Positions 32,370 to 55,278 of a stretch of DNA of 64,000 nt are shown piece by piece. Both the position numbers and the translations under genes were made by a program. A model generated the notes under the pieces. The model was not told the DNA's origin and did not search any database. It saw only the letters and a program-made list of their open reading frames with translations. Origin of the DNA: a virus; the IMG/VR virus record IMGVR_UViG_3300022700_000278, positions 50,883 through 114,882 of that record. The stretch is one strand, 5' to 3'. The first letter of the stretch is position 1; every line of letters starts with the position of its first letter.

Positions 32370-32582
32370 ATGGCGCTTACAGGAGCCGAAGAAAAGAGAC
32401 TGCGGGAAGCAGAGCAAACTCTTGTCAGAATCAATAAAATTCTGGACGGCGCAGCTAGCAAGAACCAGTTAAATAGGCTATATGTTTTATTGCTGAGAGA
32501 AGTAGAAGAGTTGTCTAATGCTGCTAGCGAGATAGAAGAAAAAGTTAATGAAGTTTTAGAATATGCCCGAAAGGCCCAATAA
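32370..32582 (+). CDS. small helical hypothetical protein
   Basis: 70-aa ORF; last gene of the + arm. Confidence 0.65.
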   Translation: MALTGAEEKRLREAEQTLVRINKILDGAASKNQLNRLYVLLLREVEELSNAASEIEEKVNEVLEYARKAQ

Positions 32583-32613: not shown

Positions 32614-33780
32614 TTATAAGGCATAGCTACGAATAATCTCTGCCACTTCTTTACACATTGATCTCGTCATAGTATTTCCAGAGGGGATACATAGTATCTT
32701 GCGCCATACCGATTCGGTTTTTTCAAGCCTGAATGTCTGACATCTAGAATATGGGACTTGCAAGTGTCCTGGCATCCACAAAGGTCTTGTTTGAACACCT
32801 TCGGCATAAAGTTTTGTCATTAGTTGTTCTCCGCTCATTCCAAACACGTCTTTGTCAATTGTTATGGCAGTAAGCCAAAAGTTGGCCTCTTCTTTGTTTG
32901 GCGGAGAAAAGACTTTGATGCCTGGAACTTCTCTCAATTCTTCATGGTATGTTTTCCACCATAAACGATGGTTGGCAAGAAAAGTGTCCAGGTGTTCCAT
33001 TTGTGAACAAGCAAGGGCTGCATTCATATTGGTCAAGCCCAAATTGTATCCTACATCATTGTGGACATAGCGTACGGTGTCATCCTTTGCTTGTAAAGAT
33101 AAATACCGGGCACGTTTGCCGTATTCTTCATTGTTTGTAATTAGCATGCCTCCGCCTCCAGCAGTCACTATTTTATTAAAACTGAAGGAAAAGATTCCCA
33201 TGTCTCCATGGGTACCTGCATGCTTGCCTTTTCCTGCGCCACTTATACACCATGTTCCCAAAGCTTCTGCTGCGTCTTCTACGATGGTTAAACCAAAGTT
33301 TTTGGCGGTCTTTCGAAGGGCTATAGGAGCGTCAGAAAATGTTCCAAGGATATGAACAGGAAGAATAGCTTTTATGGTTCTTCCAGTAAGTTTATTTTGA
33401 AGTCCTAGAGGAGTCTGAATGCATTCCTCTTCGATAAATTGTTGTGTTTTGCCCCAGTCTAAATTTAGATCAAAGTCTTGGCAATCCATAAAGACGGGAT
33501 GAGCGCCTACGTGTTTGATAGCATTGATTGGAGCGATAAAGGTTAAAGAAGGTATTAAAACTTCGTCTCCCGACCCTACTCCCGCCAATCTAAGAGCCAG
33601 CATGAGTCCAGAAGTGCCTCCATTAACAGCAATAGCGTACTTAGCGCCAGTGTAGGCTTTAACCTGTTGCTCGAGCTTGTCTACGTAGTCTCCTGCATAG
33701 GAAATCCACCCTGTGTCTAGACAGTTCTTTATATACCTCCAGGCGTTTTTGCTAATCTTTGGTTCTGCTAATGGTATCAT
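32614..33780 (-). CDS. DegT/DnrJ/LegC-family PLP-dependent sugar aminotransferase
   Basis: VNGGTSGL, PSLTFIA, VEDAAEALG, FSFSFNKIVTAGGGGM (PLP Lys) and GYN motifs. Confidence 0.9.
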   Translation of the reverse strand: MIPLAEPKISKNAWRYIKNCLDTGWISYAGDYVDKLEQQVKAYTGAKYAIAVNGGTSGLMLALRLAGVGSGDEVLIPSLTFIAPINAIKHVGAHPVFMDCQDFDLNLDWGKTQQFIEEECIQTPLGLQNKLTGRTIKAILPVHILGTFSDAPIALRKTAKNFGLTIVEDAAEALGTWCISGAGKGKHAGTHGDMGIFSFSFNKIVTAGGGGMLITNNEEYGKRARYLSLQAKDDTVRYVHNDVGYNLGLTNMNAALACSQMEHLDTFLANHRLWWKTYHEELREVPGIKVFSPPNKEEANFWLTAITIDKDVFGMSGEQLMTKLYAEGVQTRPLWMPGHLQVPYSRCQTFRLEKTESVWRKILCIPSGNTMTRSMCKEVAEIIRSYAL

Positions 33781-33819
33781 CAGTAAAGTCCTTTATTTCT
33801 TTTTCTGAGACGTGATCTA

Positions 33820-34359
33820 TCATAACTTTTTATATGCTTCTTCTGCAAGTCTCAATATCTTATCTTTTGGTCTCTTTTTGATTGGTTTGGCAGGAGATCC
33901 AATATTAATTGTCCATGGTTCTATATCTTTTGTTACAACAGAACCAGAACCAACCACAGCTCCTTCTCCAATAGTTATGTTTGGAAATACGATTGTATTT
34001 GTAGCAAGGAAAGCAAATTTTTTTAAAGTAACAAAAGATCTTGTTACATTTCTTAGTCTGTCAGGCACAGTTGGTCCCATTAGCCCCGTTCCGTCTGTTG
34101 CGTCTATTCCCGTAATTATTCTACTTCCAGCTGCAATGTTTGCAAAATCTTCAACTCTAGTGCGACCTCCTCCGCTTATAGAAACATAAGGCGCTATATG
34201 TACAAACCATCCAATGATAGTGGAGATACCACCCATGATATGAACATATTCGCTAATCATATCATGGCCCTTTAAAACTACTTTTTCTGGTGATATAATT
34301 GTTACTGGCTCAAAAATTCGAACCTCAGGGCCAACTTCTTTAAGTAGTTCTACTTCCAT
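33820..34359 (-). CDS. hexapeptide-repeat acyltransferase
   Basis: TIGEGAVVGSGSVVTKDIEPWTINIGSPAK. Confidence 0.9.
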   Translation of the reverse strand: MEVELLKEVGPEVRIFEPVTIISPEKVVLKGHDMISEYVHIMGGISTIIGWFVHIAPYVSISGGGRTRVEDFANIAAGSRIITGIDATDGTGLMGPTVPDRLRNVTRSFVTLKKFAFLATNTIVFPNITIGEGAVVGSGSVVTKDIEPWTINIGSPAKPIKKRPKDKILRLAEEAYKKL

Positions 34360-35111
34360 TTATAATCTTTTTCTAAAAACTCATACAATGCTTGATTGTA
34401 ATCTTTGTAGAAGGATTGCAGCATTTTAAATGCTTTTTCGTCTATTGGTTTCTCAGGGCTGCTCTTTCTTATATGGGTAAAATTTTTTGGATAAAATTCT
34501 TTTAGTCCTAGAAATTTTATAACATCACAATATGGTCTTTTGGGAGACTCAAAGAAGTCTTCTGACTTGATAACTAAAATTTGAGAAGAATCAAAAAGTT
34601 CACAGCACAATGGAACTGTTTTGATATAGCATCCTTTATCAATTAAATAGTAGTCGTTTTCGTGGGCGGTATCCAAGTAGTTCAGAAATGACGGATATCG
34701 TGTTTCCCACTTTGGGGCTATTTTCGCAATATGATGAAAATGAGAATAAAGACGATAGACAGGGTCTCTAAGCAAAATAATTATTTTAATATCTGGTAAA
34801 GTTGCTTTGATACGTTGCATTGAGAGGGCTCGATAGAGATATGTAGGAGATGCCTCTCCAGTAATTTGTCCTGGTTCTAAAACGGGGAACCTGTTTCGAT
34901 ACCAATCTAGTCCTTTGGACCAATGGCGATCAAAGAACCTTACTTCTTTTTGCTCAAGAGAAAGCTTTCCACCAGTATAGTCTACTTCACTATTTGGAAG
35001 TTTTCGTGCGGGGCAAATTTTTGGGTGCTTAACTAAATCTTCAAAGAAAGAGGATGTCCCACATTTGGTTTCTCCAACTAAAAGGAAGGAGGGAGTAGAT
35101 GGCTTAGACAT
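34350..35111 (-). CDS. PAPS-dependent sulfotransferase
   Basis: 5'-PSB motif GETKCGTSS, KEVRFFD, GEASPTY and 3'-PB motif LRDPVYRLYSHF. Confidence 0.9.
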   Translation of the reverse strand: MSKPSTPSFLLVGETKCGTSSFFEDLVKHPKICPARKLPNSEVDYTGGKLSLEQKEVRFFDRHWSKGLDWYRNRFPVLEPGQITGEASPTYLYRALSMQRIKATLPDIKIIILLRDPVYRLYSHFHHIAKIAPKWETRYPSFLNYLDTAHENDYYLIDKGCYIKTVPLCCELFDSSQILVIKSEDFFESPKRPYCDVIKFLGLKEFYPKNFTHIRKSSPEKPIDEKAFKMLQSFYKDYNQALYEFLEKDYKWK

Positions 35112-35952
35112 AAGAAATTGTTTCTAAAAGAAGTTTTTCTTTTGAAATTGATTTTTCGAGTTGAAGTATGGTTATTTGTGATGCATCATAAAATCGTTTT
35201 TTTACTTTTTTAGCAAAAACATCTTTTCTTTCATGAAAAACAACTGTTTTTGTACAACCATCAGAAACAGAGCAGAAAAAAGCTGAATTCGAGGCTAATA
35301 AAAATTCTGCTGCTCGTGTTAATTTCACAGCAGCTCTTCCCGTTGTTTTACCAACAAGATTAAACAACCTTTTTCTTTGATAAGAAAACTTTTCTTCAAA
35401 GAATTTAGGATTTTGAGAATTTCTTATTTTTGCGTGACTTCCTCCTACTATGACGACATTAAGATCCTTTTCTTCTACAACCATGTCTATAAATGGAATA
35501 TAGTTTTCAGGAGAAAAAAATATGCGATTTTTGCCTCCAGCGAAAGGATGAATTACTATATATCTACCTTCCTGCTGAATCCGATCAATTGTTTCCTGCT
35601 CTTTTTTAGAGAGAAAAACATCTATATTTGGTTGCTTTTTTAAGTTGTTTCGTTTTCCAAATTCTTCTAGAGATTTATACTTTTTTGCTTCTTCTTTAAT
35701 GTTTTTGCATTCTTTTATTTTGAGCGGAGATATCCATGGGTGTATATCAATAGAATCAATCCGAGGATCTAATTCAAAAAACCTAGAGGCTTCTTTTTGA
35801 ACTGGATGACAAATTAATTTAATCTTGGCTTCAGGAATTTTTGTTTTCAATTCCTGAAGATAGCCGAAACCAAAGGGGAAGCTGTGTGGAGAAAAATACC
35901 CTAAAAGATGATCTCCCAATCCCCCAGCAGTATGTAAAAAAAAGTTATTCAT
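35104..35952 (-). CDS. GT9-like glycosyltransferase
   Basis: GGLGD, IVIHPFAG, NLVGKT and SNSAF motifs; paralog of 36412. The start is placed at MNNFFL. Confidence 0.7.
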   Translation of the reverse strand: MNNFFLHTAGGLGDHLLGYFSPHSFPFGFGYLQELKTKIPEAKIKLICHPVQKEASRFFELDPRIDSIDIHPWISPLKIKECKNIKEEAKKYKSLEEFGKRNNLKKQPNIDVFLSKKEQETIDRIQQEGRYIVIHPFAGGKNRIFFSPENYIPFIDMVVEEKDLNVVIVGGSHAKIRNSQNPKFFEEKFSYQRKRLFNLVGKTTGRAAVKLTRAAEFLLASNSAFFCSVSDGCTKTVVFHERKDVFAKKVKKRFYDASQITILQLEKSISKEKLLLETISYV

Positions 35953-36157
35953 TTTTTTCAAAAAATTCATCGATAGAAGAAACAATCTTTACTCGTTGGG
36001 CATTTAAAGAAACAACTTGTTCACATAGTTCTTCAATTTCTTCGTCAGATCTTTCTTTGTCCTTTTCTTTTCCCCGTATGTTTTCTTCTATGTGCCAAAT
36101 TTTTAAATGTACAACAGCAAGCTTGTCAATCATTTCTCCAATAGAATAGGCTAGCAT
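35945..36157 (-). CDS. small helical protein (DUF4254-like)
   Basis: SIGEMIDKLAVVHLKIWHIEE..LNAQR..ID; GAAGGAGG RBS before MLAYS. Confidence 0.65.
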   Translation of the reverse strand: MLAYSIGEMIDKLAVVHLKIWHIEENIRGKEKDKERSDEEIEELCEQVVSLNAQRVKIVSSIDEFFEKNE

Positions 36158-36158
36158 G

Positions 36159-36410
36159 TTAGCCTCCTTCACAAAAATTAATTTTTGTTTCGTTTGCGCC
36201 AGAATTAAACTTTTTGTCAATTTCCCATCTGACAGCCGAACGTTGTGCGTTTAGTTCTCTAATGTTCAGAAAAATTTCTACTTTTTCTTTTGTTCCTAAT
36301 CCTTTGTCTTTTTTTACTTCACCAGAAAGAGTTTTGATCTTTGTTGCTTTGTGCCAAATTTGATTGTTTATGTTAATAAGGGAATCTATTACTTCTCCTG
36401 TTGTCTTCAT
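36159..36410 (-). CDS. small helical protein (DUF4254-like paralog)
   Basis: TTGEVIDSLININNQIWH..LNAQRS..EID. Confidence 0.65.
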   Translation of the reverse strand: MKTTGEVIDSLININNQIWHKATKIKTLSGEVKKDKGLGTKEKVEIFLNIRELNAQRSAVRWEIDKKFNSGANETKINFCEGG

Positions 36411-36411
36411 A

Positions 36412-37299
36412 TTATAACTCCTTGATTGTTCTAAAAACTTCTTTTGTTACTTCTTCAGGCGGGCGAAGATTTTTTTCGTTGCCAAGGCTAATAATTTTAT
36501 GTTTTTTTCCTTCCCACCGTTGTCCTTGGTTGAATCTTTTTCTTAAGTTTTTTTCAGGCTTCTCGGAAACGAGAAGAATTGTTAGTTTGTTATGAAGCCA
36601 AGAAGCGACAGAATAAGCAGACCAGCTACCAATAAAGTATTCTTGGTGTTTTGCAAGATGGTAGTATAGCCTAGGGTTCCCTTTGTTAACTAAATTAAAC
36701 AAGCCTGGTCGCTCATAATCAAACCTTTCTTTCATTATGAGAACTTTTTTTTCATTTTGGGTTAATCGTTTATGATCGTTCCCTATAACAACTGTATTGA
36801 CTTTTTTGTCGTCAACCAACCAGTCTATCAAAGGAATATATTCTTTTTCTGTCCCAGAACACCTTCGTCTCAGCCCCGCAAAGGGGTGAATTAATACAAA
36901 CGGACCTGCCCCTTGTATTTTTTTTAAGACTTTTCTGTCCTGTTCGTTAAGAAAAATTTTTGGACGTTTAAAAGTCAGTGAAGATAACAATCTTTTCTGA
37001 GTTGAAAGTCGTTTTGCCTGGTTACAATGAGCTTTTTCAAATGATTCTCTATTTTTTGGAGAAACTGCTCTAAAATTTTCTGCTTTTGTTATATATGGAT
37101 TATACTTAATAAGCTCTAGTACGTTTGAGTTATGTGAGGTGCCTATAACATTTATCTTTACTTGTGGATATCTTTTTTTTAAACTTTCAATATAGCCCCA
37201 ACCGGCTTTACCTTTATGGTAAGTCCAGAAAGCATCTCCTAGCCCTCCCCCAAGGGAAAGAAAAACACTTTCTGGTAATTTTTGCTTTCTTACCACCAT
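36412..37299 (-). CDS. GT9-like glycosyltransferase
   Basis: GGGLGD, YNPYI, LIHPFAG and NLVNK motifs. Confidence 0.7.
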   Translation of the reverse strand: MVVRKQKLPESVFLSLGGGLGDAFWTYHKGKAGWGYIESLKKRYPQVKINVIGTSHNSNVLELIKYNPYITKAENFRAVSPKNRESFEKAHCNQAKRLSTQKRLLSSLTFKRPKIFLNEQDRKVLKKIQGAGPFVLIHPFAGLRRRCSGTEKEYIPLIDWLVDDKKVNTVVIGNDHKRLTQNEKKVLIMKERFDYERPGLFNLVNKGNPRLYYHLAKHQEYFIGSWSAYSVASWLHNKLTILLVSEKPEKNLRKRFNQGQRWEGKKHKIISLGNEKNLRPPEEVTKEVFRTIKEL

Positions 37300-38138
37300 A
37301 AAAGATTTTTATACCCAACTTGTTTCATCAGCTTCTTGAGCTTGTCTTGTCTGCACAGTTCGTCAAACTCAAGCGACATAAAAGATCTTGTGTGTTCTAT
37401 GTCACCAGCTAAATATTTCCTCTTGAAGTTTTCCCACTGAGGCTTGGGAGAAGAGTTTCTTTTCTTTTCTATTAGCTGATAGGTCCTATTTTGTGGCTCC
37501 CATTCCAAAGTCTTTTTCTTCGCTTTTTCATTAAAGTTCAAACCGCAAAAGTCATACAGGTGTTTGATTAATTTTATTCGACCGTTTTTTGTTTTAGACT
37601 GTTCTGCATCTATTGGCAATAGAAAAGCATGTTTCTTTGGCACAGAAAGCATTTCTGTATATTTTTGTATCCACGTTTTTAATCTTTTTTGTCTAGAAAC
37701 ATTATCCATTTCATTTGGGTTGTTATGCTCTTCGTCTTCTCTCCATAACTTGGAATGAAGAGATAATAGTGGATCTCTTATCGGAATAACAATTTTTACT
37801 TCTGGCTTTTTCTCAATCAAACTTTTGATAAACCAAGAACTTGGTTTGTGATGATGCTCGTGAGCAATAACAATCTTTTTCCCTGCTAGCTGTTCTTCTT
37901 TACAAGCCGACAAAACACCTTCGCTAAACCATTCGGTACAAATTTTTTCCGACGGCTTGGTAAAGTCTGAAAGCTCTATGGGCTTGGTTTTTACATATCG
38001 CCGATGATTTAGTTTCTTATGTTTTTCCCACAAGCTTCCTATTCTAAAAGCTTCTTCTGTGTGAAACCCAGCAGCAAGCATAGAACTAGCAAAGAAAGTA
38101 CCAGTGTGCTGAATGCTATAAACAAAAACCTTTTTCAT
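37290..38138 (-). CDS. sulfotransferase-like P-loop protein
   Basis: SIQHTGTFF near the N-terminus and IRDPLLSLHS (3'-PB-like). Confidence 0.5.
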   Translation of the reverse strand: MKKVFVYSIQHTGTFFASSMLAAGFHTEEAFRIGSLWEKHKKLNHRRYVKTKPIELSDFTKPSEKICTEWFSEGVLSACKEEQLAGKKIVIAHEHHHKPSSWFIKSLIEKKPEVKIVIPIRDPLLSLHSKLWREDEEHNNPNEMDNVSRQKRLKTWIQKYTEMLSVPKKHAFLLPIDAEQSKTKNGRIKLIKHLYDFCGLNFNEKAKKKTLEWEPQNRTYQLIEKKRNSSPKPQWENFKRKYLAGDIEHTRSFMSLEFDELCRQDKLKKLMKQVGYKNLLWW

Positions 38139-40084
38139 TTGATTTTCTCTAGTAAAGCTTCATAGACATCTTTAACTGCAATGTTTTCCATACATTTAGA
38201 GTGTCCTTTTGCTGAGCCAGTCTTTTTGCATGGCATATTCTGGTTTCTCCAACAAGGAACGCAGTCCATTTTGCTACTCACCACAAGACAATTCTTGTAG
38301 TGTTTGCAGCGTGCTCGAGGATCAATCGGACCAAATAAAGCTATAGTAGGGAGGTCAGCACTTCCGGCAAGATGCAAGAAAGAAGTGTCTGGAGTAAGCA
38401 TTATATCTGCGCTTAGAGCTATCGCAGCAGCTTTCCGGAAGGGAAACCCGCCAGCATCTACAGTGTTTGGATATAAAAACTCTCTAGAATGATCAAGAAT
38501 AATTACTTGAAACTTATCAACTAACAAAGGAATTAAATCATTATATTTTTCAATTGGCCAGTTTCGGTATTCTTCTGCACAACGTAAAGCAACAGCCAGT
38601 CTCGGCTTCTCTGTTTCTGGAAGAAAAGTTTTTGCCCAAGAAAGTTCTTCTTCTGTCGGCCAGTAAGTACTAGACTTTTTCTTTATAATCTTAGAAACCC
38701 CTAGTGCCTCTGCAAAGACCTCTACTCTAGTTTTGTCTACTGGTTTTCTACTACGAACCTTGTTAGCTTCGTAGTGAGCGCATGGAGTAGAGATGTCGTA
38801 CACGATAGAATATCTGTTGTTTTTAATTTCCTTATCAGCGTCTAGCAGCTTATCTATCGTTGGACTATTTTCTGCTGCTGGCCAATACTTTTTTGGAAGC
38901 GCGAAGTAAACTTTCTTTGTAGGATATTTATCTTTTAATGCCTCTATGGCAGTCATGCTTTGTGTAATATCTCCAAATCCTCCGAAGTGTCTTTTCACTA
39001 GTACAATATTGTCAGGCTTGAAGCCTTTTCTAGAGTTTACTGTTATCACTTTCTGTACCTTGGTTTTTTCTGCAAGCTTTGTTTTAATTGCATCATGTAC
39101 CATTTCAGGATGCAGTTCTTTCATACAGGTAATTTTTCCACCACACGTTGGGGTATACCAACATCCTTCACAAGGAAGACCTGCTGTAATAGTAGTGCAG
39201 TTTGCATAGTGGTTTGTTCTAGACTCAGGAGGCACAGATCCAAACAGTGACACTGTTTTCTTTTGTAGCGCGCCAGCCAAATGTAACAATGAACTATCAG
39301 GAGTGACTACAACGTCACACTGTTCTAATATAGCCCCAGTGTATCGTAAGTTATAGTTACAAATAAATGTTTGGCGAGGGTTAAAGTGGTTCTTCTTCTC
39401 CCAATGGAACAATGCTACCCTAACCTTAGGGTCTTGCGTAAGAAGCTCTACAAGTCGCTTGTTGTGTTCCAGAGGCCAAGTACGTCTATTGTCATTGCTT
39501 TTTACCTGAAGTCCAACTAAAGTAACGTCCTTGCGGTTGTGGGGGAGCGCTTTTTGCTTTATTAGTTCCTCTGCCCATTCTTTTTCGTCATCAGTAACAA
39601 CATATGTAGGAACAGGGTCAGAAGAAACATCTACCCCAAGTTGTTCCGCAAACATATCTATTCGATTAGGTGGGACCTGACCTTTTTTTTCTCGTGCCAA
39701 ACCAGTCGCTGTTATATCTGTAAATAAATCATAGTCTCTTGCTGTTGCTGTTTTATAGCTAATTAGTTCGTCTACAAAAGGATTGTTTCGAATCACGTCG
39801 CCTAAAGCTCCGTTAGAATAAACCAAATCTGTAGCATATATTAAGTGACAGTTGGGAAGTAGTCTTTTGATGTGCTTGAGCATTGGTGTGCTCATTATCA
39901 CATCGCCAATACCTCCTAGTCTTCTGTAGACACAAACCTTTGGCTTCTTCCCTCGAAGCAGCCCATCTAGTCTGCTGAAAACTTTTGGCTCGGCACGAGC
40001 CTTAGAATGTACGTTTAAAACACGTCCTTTTGATCTCTGCTCTCCATCTGGAACGAGAATGCCTTTTTTAAGCCTGGCTACCAT
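38135..40084 (-). CDS. tandem two-domain GT9 (heptosyltransferase-like) glycosyltransferase
   Basis: Two copies of GG(I/F)GD..R.WP..TPD(S/T)S.LHLAG..LFG..P..R..C.(G/P)CW..C..CM. Confidence 0.85.
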   Translation of the reverse strand: MVARLKKGILVPDGEQRSKGRVLNVHSKARAEPKVFSRLDGLLRGKKPKVCVYRRLGGIGDVIMSTPMLKHIKRLLPNCHLIYATDLVYSNGALGDVIRNNPFVDELISYKTATARDYDLFTDITATGLAREKKGQVPPNRIDMFAEQLGVDVSSDPVPTYVVTDDEKEWAEELIKQKALPHNRKDVTLVGLQVKSNDNRRTWPLEHNKRLVELLTQDPKVRVALFHWEKKNHFNPRQTFICNYNLRYTGAILEQCDVVVTPDSSLLHLAGALQKKTVSLFGSVPPESRTNHYANCTTITAGLPCEGCWYTPTCGGKITCMKELHPEMVHDAIKTKLAEKTKVQKVITVNSRKGFKPDNIVLVKRHFGGFGDITQSMTAIEALKDKYPTKKVYFALPKKYWPAAENSPTIDKLLDADKEIKNNRYSIVYDISTPCAHYEANKVRSRKPVDKTRVEVFAEALGVSKIIKKKSSTYWPTEEELSWAKTFLPETEKPRLAVALRCAEEYRNWPIEKYNDLIPLLVDKFQVIILDHSREFLYPNTVDAGGFPFRKAAAIALSADIMLTPDTSFLHLAGSADLPTIALFGPIDPRARCKHYKNCLVVSSKMDCVPCWRNQNMPCKKTGSAKGHSKCMENIAVKDVYEALLEKIK

Positions 40085-40108: not shown

Positions 40109-40720
40109 TTACATCTGGACGTGTTCGATCATAATCGAGGGAGAGAACTTTTTGTCATCTTCATAGTTCTCTTTTGAGGTATAGTAAGCTGTTGCTTCGG
40201 TATAAAAGTTCCCTGCATTAGCGCTATTGATCTTCCAGTTTAGCTTGACAACATTAACTTCTGGCGTCTTTGTGGAAAATAGCGCTGCCATATCCTCTGC
40301 TAATTCTGTAGGATTGCGAGGCTTGCTAAAGCGTAGTTTGTCTATTAGCTTGCCAGTATATTGTCTAGCGTCTTCGTATTCACCGAAAGAAAGCTCAATT
40401 CCAATAATATTTGGACGGCTTCTCATGAGTGTTCTAAAGTATTCCGCTAATTCTTCTTCTTCTAATTTGCGGATTGCGATAGTTCCTGGGAGGCCACTAT
40501 ATTCCCAATTGCCATTTTCGTCTTGTTCATATTGATATAGTATCTTCTTTCGTTTCGCACGCATATCCTTTATTTGCTGTACAATTTCTCTTTGATTGTC
40601 TGCATCGGAAATTTCCATTCGAGTAGGATTGCGAGCAATAAGCCTAGTCGATGGATTTACCCTTGCATCGGGATCTACTTTATCAGGGGAAACTTTTTCT
40701 GGAGTTCTTTTTGCGACCAT
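40109..40720 (-). CDS. hypothetical protein
   Basis: 203-aa co-oriented ORF. Confidence 0.65.
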   Translation of the reverse strand: MVAKRTPEKVSPDKVDPDARVNPSTRLIARNPTRMEISDADNQREIVQQIKDMRAKRKKILYQYEQDENGNWEYSGLPGTIAIRKLEEEELAEYFRTLMRSRPNIIGIELSFGEYEDARQYTGKLIDKLRFSKPRNPTELAEDMAALFSTKTPEVNVVKLNWKINSANAGNFYTEATAYYTSKENYEDDKKFSPSIMIEHVQM

Positions 40721-40722
40721 TT

Positions 40723-41292
40723 TTATAGCCTTCCTTTCATTTTACCTGCAATTATTTGCAGGTCCTCGTTAATCGATGTTTTGCTAACCCCAAGAGATTG
40801 TGCAATTTGTCTGCAACTAGGAGCCTCTAAGGTTAACAAGGTTAGTATAATTGCTTTTTCGTAAATAGACAAGTTTTTGGCCAGCCATCGAGTTTCGAAT
40901 AGAAACTTAGGAATAGAAGGCCATATTTCTTCTTCTATGCAATATGTTCCTAAGTTTATCTCTAATCCTGTTGCGTCTTCTGGTGGAGGAGAAAGCCTGT
41001 TCAGCAACTCAGACACTTTCCAAGGAGTTCTGGTTTCTATGTAATAGAGTAACCGCTTATTGGGATCAAATTCTTCTATAAGAGTGTTGCACAGCAAAAA
41101 GATTTCACTTTCTGCTTCTTCTTGTTCAAGATTACACTGTGTTCGTAGTGCGTCCCTTACCCAGTCCAAGGAAGGAGAGAGTATTTTATATAGTAATTTT
41201 TTCTTGGTGACAATAGAGACTTCTTTGTTTTTGACATATTTTTCCCATTTTTTTATCTTCTTTCTTCTTTGTTCTGGTAGGAACCAAGACAA
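40723..41292 (-). CDS. sigma-70-like RNA polymerase sigma factor (divergent)
   Basis: Region-2-like EEAESEIFLLCNTLIEEFDPNKRLLYYI and region-4 HTH LSIYEKAII..SCRQIAQSLGVSKTSI. Confidence 0.6.
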   Translation of the reverse strand: MSWFLPEQRRKKIKKWEKYVKNKEVSIVTKKKLLYKILSPSLDWVRDALRTQCNLEQEEAESEIFLLCNTLIEEFDPNKRLLYYIETRTPWKVSELLNRLSPPPEDATGLEINLGTYCIEEEIWPSIPKFLFETRWLAKNLSIYEKAIILTLLTLEAPSCRQIAQSLGVSKTSINEDLQIIAGKMKGRL

Positions 41293-53315: not shown

Positions 53316-53522
53316 CTACTGCTTTCTATGAAACGTCTTGGTAAAAGGCTCTTTGTTTGGGCATGTTATTTTAATAATAATAGTGCTTCGTGAACTGTCT
53401 TGCTCTGTTACTTTACATTTAGGATATTCTGCTTCTACTCTACGCTGAGCAACAGAGGTGCAGCATACAAATATTACAATCGTAGCCAGAAAAAGCAGTG
53501 TTTTTATACTTCTAAAACCCAT
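53316..53522 (-). CDS. small secreted or lipoprotein-like protein
   Basis: Basic N-terminus, hydrophobic stretch, then CC. Confidence 0.5.
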   Translation of the reverse strand: MGFRSIKTLLFLATIVIFVCCTSVAQRRVEAEYPKCKVTEQDSSRSTIIIKITCPNKEPFTKTFHRKQ

Positions 53523-54109
53523 TGTCTTGTTTCCTTAATTAATGGAAAACCAATATGGTCTGCAAATCCATATTTTATTGCTTCTTTTGCATTTAGGTAA
53601 AGTTCTCCATTTGAATCTTTTAGCAAGTTGTTAAATTGTTTCTGTGTCAAGTTGGACTTTTTTATTACTCTTTTTATCCACTCTTCATTCATTCTAGAAA
53701 CTGTATTTAAGTAACGCTTCATATCTTCGCTGTCCATAGATATTGCTGTAACCTGAACATTATGAAACATCAATCTAGAAGCAGGAGCCATCCATCTTTC
53801 TTCTCCTAAAGAAAATAGTATTGCTCCTGCAGATAACGACTTCCCAGCATTAACTGTTACTACAGGTTTAGTAGAGCATTCAATTATTTCTGCCATACTA
53901 AATAAAGCGTCAAGATCTCCTCCGTTGGAGTCAACATATACAACAATTTTTTCAATCTTATCGTCGCTTAGATAACAAGAAAAATCATAAAAGAATTCTT
54001 TTGCTGTATCTTCATCAAAGTTATTAACCCAAATTACAGGTAGTTCGTTTTCGTCTTGCATAGCGAGAGGCACAGAAGCTTCTCCTATGACAGCAGAGTG
54101 TTTCGTCAT
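53504..54109 (-). CDS. ClpP-like protease subunit
   Basis: VDSNGG, SLSAGA (Ser), LMFH (His) and AKEAIKYGFADHI. Confidence 0.85.
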   Translation of the reverse strand: MTKHSAVIGEASVPLAMQDENELPVIWVNNFDEDTAKEFFYDFSCYLSDDKIEKIVVYVDSNGGDLDALFSMAEIIECSTKPVVTVNAGKSLSAGAILFSLGEERWMAPASRLMFHNVQVTAISMDSEDMKRYLNTVSRMNEEWIKRVIKKSNLTQKQFNNLLKDSNGELYLNAKEAIKYGFADHIGFPLIKETRQWVLEV

Positions 54110-54705
54110 TAAACAGCCTCACATTCCCAGACTTCAGATCTACTTATTTTCGGCACTCCAATATGATCTATAAAACCATATTCTTTTGCTTTCTCTGCTC
54201 CAAAAAACCATTCTCCTTCGTGTTCTTTTATTTTTAATATAATTTCTTTTGTCGACAACTGTGCTTTTTTGGCAATCAGAGAAAAAATTCTATTATTTCG
54301 TTCTTCTAAAGCATCTAATTCTCTTTTCAATGTTTTTGTATTGCCGGTGATATCGCTTGATGCGTGATGTATTTGCATCATACAATTTCTACTCATCCAT
54401 CTTGTGCCACTTGGACCAAGTGCTAAAAAATATGCTGCAGCAGAACAAACTAAGCCAAGTCCTACTATATGTATTTCTTTTGATGAATTATTTATTGTGT
54501 CTACCATAGCTAACAAAGGATCAACTTCTCCTCCATATGAAAAAACATTGATGAATATGGAGGTCAGGTTTTGATCTGCTTCTAGCTCTTGCATTCTTTT
54601 AATGAAAACGTCTGCCGCCTCAAAGGTGAAGTCACATATGTTTATTATTGGAGCTTCATCTTTCTCCACTTCTAGTGGAACGCGCTTGAATTCCCATGTG
54701 TCCAT
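54109..54705 (-). CDS. ClpP-like protease subunit
   Basis: FSYGG, VCSAAA (Ser), MQIH (His) and AEKAKEYGFIDHI. Confidence 0.85.
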   Translation of the reverse strand: MDTWEFKRVPLEVEKDEAPIINICDFTFEAADVFIKRMQELEADQNLTSIFINVFSYGGEVDPLLAMVDTINNSSKEIHIVGLGLVCSAAAYFLALGPSGTRWMSRNCMMQIHHASSDITGNTKTLKRELDALEERNNRIFSLIAKKAQLSTKEIILKIKEHEGEWFFGAEKAKEYGFIDHIGVPKISRSEVWECEAV

Positions 54706-54714
54706 GTTGGCTTC

Positions 54715-55278
54715 CTATCCCGACAAAATCTTTTTTACTATGTTTGTAGTGCTAGTTTCTGTTCCTTCTAATAAGTGAATTTCTGTCTTTGTTGTTTTTG
54801 CAGCTTTGGTTTCTTCACGATTAAAAGAAGATGCTGTATATTTTCCTTTTGCGAAATAGCTTGGACGCAACTCTATAATGTTTGATACATTTGTTGGTTC
54901 ATCAAACATGAAGACATAATCTACGGCTTCTAAAGCAGCAACAAGGAACATTCTTTCTTGCTCAGGAACAATTGGGCGATCGACAATCTTGTGTGGCTTA
55001 TATTTTTTTACTGATGCGTCAGAATTTATTCCCACTACCAAAGGAGCATTTTTGTTTATAGTAGCAATTTCTTCTAAAAAACTACTGTGCCCTACATGTA
55101 GGATGTCAAATGCACCCGAAGTAAAAACTATATCTGCTGTTTGATCTTTGGGGATGCTTCTGTTAATTGTCTTTGCCAGTATTTTCCGTGTCGTAATTTT
55201 CTCCGAGGCCCGTTGTCGAGAAAAGAAGCCCTCCGGACTTTTCTTCTTGATCCAGGTTTCTTTGAGGTTTTGACGCAT
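54715..55278 (-). CDS. HldE/RfaE domain II-like heptose-1-phosphate nucleotidyltransferase
   Basis: GAFDILHVGH, GINSDASVK, RPIV..ER..LEAVDYV..FDE and STTNIVKKI motifs. Confidence 0.8.
   Translation of the reverse strand: MRQNLKETWIKKKSPEGFFSRQRASEKITTRKILAKTINRSIPKDQTADIVFTSGAFDILHVGHSSFLEEIATINKNAPLVVGINSDASVKKYKPHKIVDRPIVPEQERMFLVAALEAVDYVFMFDEPTNVSNIIELRPSYFAKGKYTASSFNREETKAAKTTKTEIHLLEGTETSTTNIVKKILSG

What the first reader, a model, noticed from the sequence alone, without database searches (positions are those of the whole stretch)
32614..40084. Phage-encoded glycan building and decorating cluster including sulfotransferases
Seen: nine contiguous genes, in transcription order a double GT9, a sulfotransferase-like protein, a GT9-like protein, two DUF4254-like proteins, another GT9-like protein, a sulfotransferase, an acyltransferase and a LegC/DegT aminotransferase. 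The central part is visibly more AT-rich. Established: an aminotransferase plus acyltransferase makes N-acyl-amino sugars, GT9 enzymes transfer heptose, and sulfotransferases use PAPS. Inference: the product is a sulfated, acylated glycan placed on virion proteins (many here are Ser/Thr-rich), on host LPS (receptor masking), or on DNA. No dehydratase or PAPS synthase lies in this window. Sulfation of a phage-made glycan is not something I know to be characterised.
Basis: partly seen in the sequence, partly recalled or inferred. Interest (0 to 1): 0.75.

Follow-up and report, generated by a model that had tools for sequence, protein, structure and literature searches.

The report
Phage heptose-and-sulfate glycan gene island
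A large uncultured tailed phage carries nine tightly packed, apparently intact genes for building a heptose-based sugar chain and adding an acylated amino sugar and sulfate; a whole phage lineage shares this kind of island, but what the sugar is attached to is still unknown.

Summary
Nine abutting minus-strand genes (32614-40084) encode:
- a tandem GT9 heptosyltransferase
- a divergent sulfotransferase-fold protein
- two GT9-fold paralogues, each next to a small DUF4254-like protein
- a canonical carbohydrate sulfotransferase
- an AntD-like N-acyltransferase
- a GDP-perosamine-synthase-like aminotransferase

The centre of the cluster has the lowest GC of the 115-kb record. The record is a fragment (CheckV 61%) of a roughly 190-kb contractile-tailed phage.

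The tandem GT9 occurs in about 90 metagenomic protein clusters and in none of the bacterial genomes scanned. It is as conserved as the primase-helicase. Some homologues carry an intein.

The genes after it form a variable island. Relatives hold a true GDP-mannose 4,6-dehydratase, methyltransferases or pyruvyltransferases. Most islands hold sulfotransferase-fold genes.

A heptose-1-phosphate adenylyltransferase lies 15 kb away. No APS kinase, GmhA or DNA hydroxymethylase was found, even in a complete 197.7-kb relative.

The likely product is a heptose oligosaccharide capped with N-acyl-perosamine-type sugar and sulfate (chemistry about 0.75). The acceptor is unresolved:
- virion proteins, about 0.40
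- host LPS core, about 0.33
- DNA, unlikely

Earlier notes of this scan describe similar clusters in other phage genomes.

The parts
38135..40084 (-). g1: tandem (double) GT9 heptosyltransferase, 649 aa. It is the conserved anchor of the island.
   Evidence: Pfam PF01075 with 2 stretches, E 2.4e-23. Both halves keep GxGD, a (R/K)xWP-type motif, PD(S/T)xxLH(L/I)AG and a Cys4 motif, invariant in 8 homologues. A profile search of the PDB finds 3TOV, WaaF and WaaC. About 90 metagenomic clusters hold homologues.
37290..38138 (-). g2: divergent sulfotransferase-fold protein, 282 aa. The P-loop reads H-T-G-T instead of K-x-G-T.
   Evidence: No Pfam hit. Atlas feature score 0.96 and TM 0.6 to sulfotransferase clusters. 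AF2 model with Foldseek hits only to PAPS sulfotransferases, TPST first at E 1e-5. HTG and RDP motifs are invariant in 5 homologues.
36412..37299 (-). g3: GT9-fold glycosyltransferase-like protein, 295 aa, of a family seen only in phage and metagenome data.
   Evidence: AF2 pLDDT 93.8. Best folds are WaaF 1PSW, 3TOV, TibC and WaaC. GGGLGD and HPFAG are invariant in 25 sequences, but the C-terminal D(S/T)GxxH motif is replaced. 24 homologues were found. No relative was confirmed in a pattern-based scan of bacterial genome contigs.
36159..36410 (-). g4: single-unit DUF4254-like helical protein, 83 aa.
   Evidence: Paralogue of g5 (35% identity). The nearest Atlas clusters are viral DUF4254. Orthologues pair with a g5-type gene in 4 relatives.
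35945..36157 (-). g5: single-unit DUF4254 protein, 70 aa from the ATG at 36157.
   Evidence: Pfam PF14063 E 1.9e-7, 31.5 bits against a cut-off of 27. The start is placed by alignment with homologues.
35104..35952 (-). g6: second GT9-fold protein, paralogue of g3, 282 aa from the ATG at 35952.
   Evidence: 29% identity to g3, E 6e-32. It aligns with the g3 family and keeps its invariant motifs.
34350..35111 (-). g7: carbohydrate-type PAPS sulfotransferase, 253 aa.
   Evidence: Pfam Sulfotransfer_1 E 2e-12. Best PDB match is heparan sulfate 3-O-sulfotransferase, E 3e-19, with E56 aligned to the first Glu of its EPHFFD motif. The K-C-G-T, E56, RFFD and RxPxxRLxSH motifs are invariant in 5 homologues.
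33820..34359 (-). g8: left-handed beta-helix N-acyltransferase, AntD-like, 179 aa.
   Evidence: Pfam Hexapep. Best PDB matches are 3VBI-3VBP, E 1e-28 over residues 8-177. 3VBN is AntD of Bacillus cereus (PMC6031040).
32614..33780 (-). g9: PLP sugar aminotransferase, GDP-perosamine-synthase-like, 388 aa.
   Evidence: DegT family E 1e-85. TIGR04181 LegC family at 408 bits, just under the 420 cut-off. Best PDB matches are perosamine synthetases 3BN1, 3DR7 and 3DR4, E 3e-57. The SFxxxK and DAAxA motifs are readable in the translation.
54715..55278 (-). Heptose-1-phosphate adenylyltransferase-like gene (HldE domain II type). It is the likely supplier of ADP-heptose and lies 15 kb from the island.
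   Evidence: Pfam CTP_transf_like E 1e-14. NCBIfam rfaE_dom_II E 3.9e-31, 108 bits against a cut-off of 181.5. The orthologue in L004 is fused to GmhB.
40109..41292 (-). Two conserved genes of unknown role (203 aa, and 189 aa with a weak C-terminal HTH) that precede the tandem GT9 in every relative examined whose contig reaches them.
   Evidence: Synteny in 13 contigs. The HTH hits are weak. No informative PDB match. Membership in the system is not shown.
32370..32582 (+). 70-aa gene that marks the far boundary of the variable island in relatives.
   Evidence: Homologues end the island in L001, L003, L004, L007, L012, L021 and L022.

Best explanation
The nine genes are a phage-borne, cytoplasmic glycan assembly and decoration line.

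Proposed steps:
1. The tandem GT9 (g1) transfers heptose from ADP-heptose. The final activation step is helped by the phage adenylyltransferase at 54715-55278.
2. The two GT9-fold paralogues (g3, g6) extend the chain. Each sits beside a one-unit DUF4254 protein (g4, g5). Together these two probably form the two-unit DUF4254 module that bacteria encode as one chain.
3. g9 aminates GDP-4-keto-6-deoxymannose. The keto sugar comes from Gmd: inside the island in relatives, but from the host or the unsequenced part of the genome here.
4. g8 N-acylates the resulting perosamine-type sugar.
5. g7, and perhaps g2, add sulfate from host PAPS.

Shown: gene content, intact motifs, folds, synteny and lineage-wide conservation.
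Inferred: donors, order of steps and product.

I commit to the phage's own virion proteins as the most likely acceptor. Under that reading the glycan forms an anionic coat on the particle.
For: Chemistry:
- Family, motif and fold results.
- Gmd (TIGR01472, 534 bits) sits inside relatives' islands.
- The HldC-like gene, and its GmhB fusion in L004.

For a virion acceptor:
- The tandem GT9 behaves as a core gene. It shares 42-58% identity across relatives, the same range as the primase-helicase at 47-55%.
- It occurs in about 90 clusters on contigs up to 198 kb, and some homologues carry an intein at the invariant C308.
- Pattern-based scans of the bacterial genome contigs confirmed no relative.
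- No flippase, polymerase, ligase or lipid-carrier transferase family turned up among the island proteins scanned.
- The downstream island is hypervariable (sulfate, methyl, pyruvyl, amino sugar), as expected of an exposed glycan.
- The island abuts the end of the virion module.
- GT9 enzymes can O-heptosylate proteins in the cytoplasm, as TibC does (PMC4358343).
- Virion glycosylation by phage-encoded transferases is established in mycobacteriophages (Freeman 2023, as cited in PMC12619734).
Against: - No acceptor is identified and no chemistry has been measured.
- By sequence, g1 groups with LPS-type GT9 (3TOV, WaaF, WaaC). TibC is not found.
- DUF4254 is linked to RfaF in all 50 Flavobacteriia genomes of PMC9425974. 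That points to LPS-core chemistry.
- The island is transcribed in the same direction as the replication genes, not the structural genes.
- Gmd is absent from this 115-kb record.
- g2 lacks the P-loop lysine.
- Ser/Thr enrichment of virion proteins is slight.
Confidence: 0.4

Rival explanations
1. Host LPS or LOS inner-core remodelling. The same enzymes add and decorate heptoses on lipid A-core at the inner membrane during infection. This changes the cell surface, either to mask the receptor so that progeny are not lost on infected cells and debris, or to exclude competing phages.
For: - The sequence affinity of g1 is with WaaC, WaaF and 3TOV, not TibC.
- DUF4254 is genomically linked to RfaF in Flavobacteriia (PMC9425974).
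- The phage encodes only the last ADP-heptose step and no GmhA. The host therefore probably makes heptose for its own LPS.
- The island is co-directional with the replication genes, which may mean early or middle expression.
- Perosamine-type N-acyl sugars are, to my knowledge, classical LPS components.
Against: - Core-gene-like conservation and an intein are unusual for an exclusion function.
- Scores against the HepI, HepII and HepIII equivalog models are all far below cut-off.
- The g1 and g3 families were not found in bacterial genomes.
- No other LPS gene turned up among the proteins scanned.
Confidence: 0.33
2. DNA hypermodification. The glycosyltransferases build a glycan on a modified base of phage DNA to evade restriction.
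For: - The island sits beside replication and recombination genes.
- Phage glycosyltransferases can put multi-sugar glycans on DNA (Pyle 2024, as cited in PMC12619734).
Against: - No thymidylate-synthase-like hydroxymethylase in this record or in the complete 197.7-kb relative.
- No Tet/JBP hit, although that search had no positive control.
- I know of no GT9 enzyme that acts on DNA.
- Sulfation and N-acyl-perosamine on DNA have no precedent that I know of.
Confidence: 0.05
3. Another acceptor: a host or phage non-virion protein, a lipid, or a soluble small-molecule glycoside made during infection.
For: - All enzymes are soluble and no acceptor is identifiable.
- DUF4254 units are fused to acyl- and methyltransferases in other contexts.
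- An earlier unverified note of this scan reads a GT9-like plus DUF4254 cassette in an archaeon as a small-molecule pathway.
Against: - No transporter, kinase or scaffold-synthesis gene accompanies the island.
- Four GT9-type domains argue for an oligosaccharide on a macromolecule.
Confidence: 0.15
4. Decaying cargo: recently acquired, low-GC genes that are no longer functional.
For: - The centre has the lowest GC of the record.
- Gmd is missing here although relatives have it.
- g2 has an atypical P-loop.
Against: - All nine frames are open and tightly coupled.
- Motifs are invariant across homologues at 25-60% identity.
- The same gene order is kept in four other contigs.
Confidence: 0.04

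Closest known systems
LPS inner-core heptosyltransferases WaaC and WaaF (CAZy GT9; PDB 2GT1, 2H1H, 1PSW) and Veillonella GT9 3TOV
   Same: - GT-B fold.
- The N-terminal GxGD motif and the C-terminal D(S/T)xxxH(L/I)A motif are kept in both halves of g1.
- These are the best sequence and fold matches.
- ADP-heptose is the presumed donor, with a phage HldC-like gene present.
   Different: - g1 is a fused tandem of two GT9 domains, found only in phage and metagenome data.
- It scores far below the HepI, II and III equivalog cut-offs.
- g3 and g6 lack the C-terminal donor motif and get no Pfam hit.
- The acceptor is unknown.
Bacterial autotransporter heptosyltransferases TibC and Aah (BAHT; PDB 4RAP, 4RB4; PMC4358343)
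   Same: - GT9-type enzymes that O-heptosylate proteins in the cytoplasm.
- TibC has a Cys4 metal finger and works as a back-to-back dimer. g1 has a Cys4 motif in each half and is a covalent tandem.
- TibC is among the top fold matches of g3.
   Different: - No sequence-level match of g1 to TibC or to a BAHT model.
- The Cys spacing differs: x2/x5/x5 and x2/x7/x11, against x2/x15/x11 in TibC.
- No autotransporter substrate gene lies beside g1.
[quoted passage not shown]
GDP-perosamine pathway (Gmd, Per, PerB; Caulobacter Per 3BN1/3DR4) and the anthrose N-acyltransferase AntD (3VBI-3VBP)
   Same: - g9 is most similar to perosamine synthase (E 3e-57).
- g8 is most similar to AntD (E 1e-28).
- Relatives carry a true Gmd in the island.
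   Different: - Gmd is absent from this record.
- g8 is only distantly related to PerB (E about 7e-5).
- The acyl group is unknown.
- The pathway sits in a phage island together with sulfotransferases.
Heparan sulfate 3-O- and N-sulfotransferases, and bacterial carbohydrate sulfotransferases (PF00685)
   Same: - g7 keeps the 5'-PSB and 3'-PB motifs.
- E56 of g7 aligns with the first Glu of the EPHFFD motif. I recall that Glu as the catalytic base.
- PAPS is the presumed donor.
   Different: - g7 is phage-encoded and its acceptor is unknown.
- The second enzyme, g2, has His in place of the P-loop Lys. Its nearest folds are tyrosylprotein sulfotransferases.
Virus-encoded virion glycosylation: mycobacteriophage capsid and tail-tube glycans (Freeman 2023, cited in PMC12619734), and giant-virus glycan clusters (from my own knowledge)
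   Same: - Soluble virus-encoded glycosyltransferases together with methyltransferases and amino-sugar enzymes.
- Variable gene content between relatives.
   Different: - Heptose-based GT9 chemistry and sulfation have not been reported there.
- The host is probably Gram-negative.
- Attachment to the virion is not shown here.

Membership tests
GT9 (PF01075) - g1 | Pfam match above the gathering score | tested here: met
   83.2 bits against a cut-off of 22, with two stretches. Both halves ring again.
GT9 (PF01075) - g1 | N-terminal GxGD Asp motif and C-terminal D(S/T)xxxH(L/I)A donor-site motif | tested here: met
   G60-D61 and D263-S264..H268 in the first half; G371-D372 and D566..H571 in the second. 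All are invariant in 8 homologues.
GT9 (PF01075) - g1 | Transfers heptose from ADP-heptose | not testable with these tools
   The only support is contextual: an rfaE_dom_II-like gene at 54715-55278.
LPS heptosyltransferase I/II/III equivalogs (TIGR02193, TIGR02195, TIGR02201) | Score above the NCBIfam equivalog cut-off | tested here: not met
   90.2 against 185.3, 73.5 against 134.6, and 43.3 against 170.2.
GT9 - g3 and g6 | Pfam match | tested here: not met
   No family at E <= 0.01. Orthologues in G007 and G006 give weak PF01075 matches, E 2e-8 and 4e-4.
GT9 - g3 and g6 | GT-B fold closest to GT9 structures | tested here: met
   pLDDT 93.8. The top Foldseek hits are 1PSW, 3TOV, 4RAP and 2H1H, E 1e-8 to 1e-6.
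GT9 - g3 and g6 | C-terminal D(S/T)GxxH donor motif | tested here: not met
   Replaced by a WSAYS-type segment that is conserved in the family.
BAHT (TibC/Aah) | Sequence membership (match to TibC or to a BAHT model) | tested here: not met
   No TibC chain at E <= 1 with either the protein or the profile. No BAHT model appears among the NCBIfam hits.
BAHT (TibC/Aah) | Cys4 iron finger | tested here: inconclusive
   A Cys4 motif is present in both halves but with different spacing. The metal is unknown.
BAHT (TibC/Aah) | Adjacent autotransporter or adhesin substrate gene | tested here: not met
   The neighbours are a 203-aa unknown gene and g2.
PAPS sulfotransferase (PF00685) - g7 | Pfam match above cut-off, plus the 5'-PSB and 3'-PB motifs and the acidic residue I recall as the catalytic base | tested here: met
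   47.5 bits against a cut-off of 22. K16-C-G-T, R115..R120..S123 and E56 are invariant.
PAPS sulfotransferase - g2 | Sulfotransferase fold | tested here: met
   All Foldseek hits at E <= 1e-3 are sulfotransferases. Atlas TM is 0.6.
PAPS sulfotransferase - g2 | 5'-PSB lysine or arginine, and a Pfam match | tested here: not met
   The loop reads H11-T-G and is invariant. There is no Pfam hit. hhalign against the g7 family gives a probability of only 12%.
GDP-perosamine synthase / LegC-family aminotransferase - g9 | Family score above cut-off | tested here: not met
   TIGR04181 at 408.3 against 420, a marginal miss. DegT Pfam at 288.6 against 19.8 is met.
GDP-perosamine synthase - g9 | Partner GDP-mannose 4,6-dehydratase | tested here: inconclusive
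   Absent from this 115-kb record. Present inside the island in six related contigs: L001, L002, L003, L004, L005 and L015. The record is only 61% complete.
DUF4254 (PF14063) - g5 and g4 | Pfam match above cut-off | tested here: met
   g5 scores 31.5 against 27. g4 qualifies only through paralogy and the family profile.
Phage virion glycosylation systems | Glycan shown on capsid or tail proteins | not testable with these tools
   No isolate, and no sequencing run was listed.

The most novel reading that the evidence does not exclude
A widespread lineage of roughly 175-200-kb uncultured, probably aquatic myophages coats its own particles with a sulfated, heptose-based glycan.

- The glycan is started by a fused tandem GT9, a covalent counterpart of the TibC back-to-back dimer.
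- It is finished by a hypervariable decoration island.
- Paired one-unit DUF4254 proteins act as adaptors that dock glycan enzymes.
- In relatives that lack an N-acyltransferase, the g7-type enzyme, which always sits next to the aminotransferase, might sulfate the perosamine-type sugar itself.

I know of no phage-made sulfated glycan that has been characterised, and none turned up in the papers searched.
Probability: 0.35. Interest if true: 0.8.

Novelty: new variant of a known kind. Interest (0 to 1): 0.6.

Why it matters
- **Sulfotransferases in phages.** They are repeatedly annotated in phage genomes without any known role. PMC10580990 says so explicitly.
- **A concrete context.** Here the sulfotransferases sit in a defined pathway: heptose transfer, amino-sugar synthesis and N-acylation. 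The pathway is anchored by a gene that a whole phage lineage keeps as faithfully as its replication genes.
- **If the glycan is on the virion.** It would add sulfated heptoglycans to phage particle chemistry. That bears on adsorption, on stability and on how such phages behave in sediments and water.
- **If the glycan is on LPS.** It would be a lytic-phage receptor-masking system.
- **DUF4254.** Either way, the island gives this family a testable partner and role. DUF4254 is conserved in all 50 Flavobacteriia genomes sampled in PMC9425974.

Tried and rejected
The genomic context of the metagenomic homologues came only from IMG/VR loci.
- Cultured phages: no DNA match. There was no protein match for g3. 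g7, g5 and g1 gave only weak matches.
- Single-protein scans of viral contigs found nothing. Alignment-based scans did work.
- Both scans of bacterial genome contigs found no relative of g3 or g1. These scans depend on short exact patterns, so distant relatives could have been missed.
- Sequencing runs: none was listed, and no RNA holder was listed.
- No tRNA genes in the window.
No host could be inferred that way.
- The promoter and terminator scan did not exceed shuffled controls.
- hhalign of the g2 family against the g7 family was weak. The fold evidence was needed instead.
- The search for longer, fused forms of the g3 family found none. No GT9 fusion appeared among the 150 best DUF4254-like representatives.
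- A PDB search with only the C-terminal Cys motif of g1 found nothing.
- A PDB search with the 203-aa neighbour was uninformative.
- The Tet/JBP search had no positive control.
- The 'moraphage' lineage of PMC12619734 was considered as the identity of this phage and was not adopted. It has a T4-like core gene set, and neither RecA nor ClpP is mentioned in the paper.

Full report
**What is there**

The window is the last 64 kb of a 114,882-base IMG/VR virus record. The record is linear, with a CheckV completeness of 61%. It encodes:
- terminase, portal, major head protein and tail sheath
- tail proteins
- on the opposite strand, a replication block: primase-helicase, DnaE-type polymerase, two ClpP, Dam and RecA

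The finding covers the last nine genes of that minus-strand block. The nine genes converge on the end of the plus-strand virion module. They overlap or abut, with gaps from -10 to +39 nt. The central genes g4-g6 have GC 0.315-0.325, the lowest in a record that averages 0.446.

**Identity of the nine genes**

| Gene | Coordinates | Result |
|---|---|---|
| g1 | 38135-40084 | Two GT9 domains. Both halves keep the GxGD and PD(S/T)xxLH(L/I)AG motifs and a Cys4 motif, all invariant in eight homologues at 43-58% identity. |
| g2 | 37290-38138 | No Pfam hit. An AF2 model (pLDDT 81) matches only PAPS sulfotransferases, tyrosylprotein sulfotransferases first. The Atlas agrees. Its P-loop reads H-T-G-T, so activity is uncertain. 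|
| g3, g6 | 36412-37299, 35104-35952 | Paralogues with no Pfam hit. The g3 model (pLDDT 93.8) is closest to WaaF, 3TOV, TibC and WaaC. The family keeps GGGLGD but not the C-terminal donor motif. |
| g4, g5 | 36159-36410, 35945-36157 | Paralogous single-unit DUF4254 proteins. |
| g7 | 34350-35111 | A canonical carbohydrate sulfotransferase. Closest solved structure is heparan sulfate 3-O-sulfotransferase (E 3e-19). The PAPS-binding motifs and an aligned Glu are invariant. |
| g8 | 33820-34359 | Closest to AntD (E 1e-28), the N-acyltransferase of the anthrose pathway. |
| g9 | 32614-33780 | Closest to GDP-perosamine synthase (E 3e-57). |

**Conservation**

The g3 family has 24 homologues in metagenomes. 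The tandem GT9 has about 90 clusters, on contigs up to 198 kb. Pattern-based scans of the bacterial genome contigs confirmed no relative of either.

IMG/VR scans returned 24 loci on 17 contigs. In 13 of these contigs g1 is at least 42% identical to its homologue. Where the contig reaches them, the gene order is the same: primase-helicase, an endonuclease I-like gene, a 189-aa HTH-like gene, a 203-aa gene, the tandem GT9, then a variable island that ends at a 70-aa gene. The tandem GT9 is as conserved as the primase-helicase.

Some homologues carry an intein. In all 13 intein-length homologues that I aligned, the insertion falls at invariant C308.

Two island types recur:
- **Perosamine type** (this window and four other contigs; two further contigs break off after Gmd): GT9-like, Gmd, DUF4254 pair, GT9-like, methyltransferases, g7-type sulfotransferase, aminotransferase.
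- **Second type** (L021, L022): GT9-like, g2-type sulfotransferase-fold genes, an unknown 237-aa family, and a methyltransferase or pyruvyltransferase.

Sulfotransferase-fold genes occur in seven or eight of the nine islands seen whole or nearly whole. Among the contigs seen, this window alone has the AntD-like gene. It is also the only perosamine-type island without Gmd.

**Precursor supply**

The gene at 54715-55278 is best matched by the HldE adenylyltransferase domain (E 3.9e-31, below cut-off). Its orthologue in L004 is fused to GmhB.

The 115-kb record has no APS kinase, no SDR dehydratase and no GmhA. A complete relative (197,730 b, with terminal repeats) has no APS kinase, no GmhA and no thymidylate-synthase-like hydroxymethylase. 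PAPS and the early heptose intermediates must therefore come from the host. That implies a host with an ADP-heptose pathway.

**DUF4254**

A profile search found 424 representative clusters:
- Most are single units of 65-95 aa. The nearest Atlas clusters of g4 are largely viral.
- The forms of about 140 aa contain two units.
- A few units are fused to a hexapeptide acyltransferase, to a methyltransferase, or to endonuclease VII. None is fused to GT9.

In a 735-kb megaphage, a DUF4254 gene again sits among sugar-modifying genes. In Flavobacteriia the family is present in all 50 sampled genomes and is linked to RfaF (PMC9425974). I infer that g4 and g5 form a split two-unit module that works with glycan enzymes.

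**Acceptor**

Nothing computed here decides the acceptor.

- **For virion proteins:** the anchor gene behaves as a core gene, it was found only in phage data, no lipid-carrier, flippase or ligase family appears among the scanned island proteins, the decorations are hypervariable, and protein O-heptosylation by GT9 has a precedent in TibC (PMC4358343).
- **For LPS core:** g1 is closest in sequence to WaaC and WaaF rather than TibC, DUF4254 is linked to RfaF, the island runs in the same direction as the replication genes, and the sugars are of LPS type.
- **Against DNA:** no hydroxymethylase was found.

My odds are virion 0.40, LPS 0.33, another acceptor 0.15, DNA 0.05 and decaying cargo 0.04. 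The chemistry itself (a heptose chain with an N-acyl-perosamine-type sugar and sulfate) I put at about 0.75.

**Novelty**

Phage and giant-virus glycan islands are known. Phage sulfotransferases have been noted, but their role is called unclear (PMC10580990). What is new here is the combination:
- a lineage-core tandem GT9, with an intein in some homologues
- GT9-like and DUF4254 gene pairs
- a perosamine branch
- recurrent sulfation

Earlier notes of this scan describe similar GT9-like and sulfotransferase clusters in other phage genomes, mostly read as virion decoration. I treat those notes as leads, not as evidence.

Noticed in passing
homologues of window 38135-40084 (P0029, P0037, P0041, P0050, P0052, P0059, P0061, P0075, P0078, P0080, P0095, P0100, P0110); L017:10001-12742: About one in seven homologue clusters of the tandem GT9 is roughly 940-1040 aa long and carries intein or LAGLIDADG domains. 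In all 13 checked, the insertion falls at the invariant C308, the second Cys of the N-half CxxC motif.
   Followed up: partly
L001:10869-13094 and L015:12877-14844: The island's GDP-mannose 4,6-dehydratase carries an intein with a homing-endonuclease domain in L001. The long L015 homologue probably does too, but it was not scanned. This would be a second intein-bearing sugar enzyme in the same lineage.
   Followed up: partly
L004:541-1590: A relative fuses the heptose-1-phosphate adenylyltransferase domain to a GmhB-type heptose bisphosphate phosphatase. The fusion sits next to the NT5C-like gene and the primase-helicase.
   Followed up: partly
window 32370-32582 against L001, L003, L004, L007, L021, L022: The 70-aa gene at the island boundary lies on the strand opposite to the island here and in L012. 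In the other relatives it is co-directional with the island, which suggests a small local inversion.
   Followed up: no
L010:8827-9972: An IS605 OrfB/TnpB-type (Cas12f-like) gene is inserted directly upstream of the tandem GT9 in one relative.
   Followed up: no
P0145, P0266, P0249, P0142: Single DUF4254 units occur fused to a hexapeptide acyltransferase, to a Methyltransf_24 domain (weak hit), and to endonuclease VII.
   Followed up: partly
G007:C1:62852-63193 (L022:17031-18173, minus strand): In a 174-kb relative, a weak Sulfotransfer_1 match (E 3e-5) lies in a 380-aa gene of the convergent operon, just beyond the island.
   Followed up: no
window 53504-54705: Two adjacent ClpP-family protease genes lie between the DnaE polymerase and the adenylyltransferase gene.
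   Followed up: no
L007:9015-14964: In one relative only the tandem GT9 stays at the usual site. A second cluster lies a few kb further on. It holds a pyruvyltransferase, a GT9-like gene, an SDR and a B12-radical SAM enzyme, and sits beyond the exonuclease gene.
   Followed up: partly
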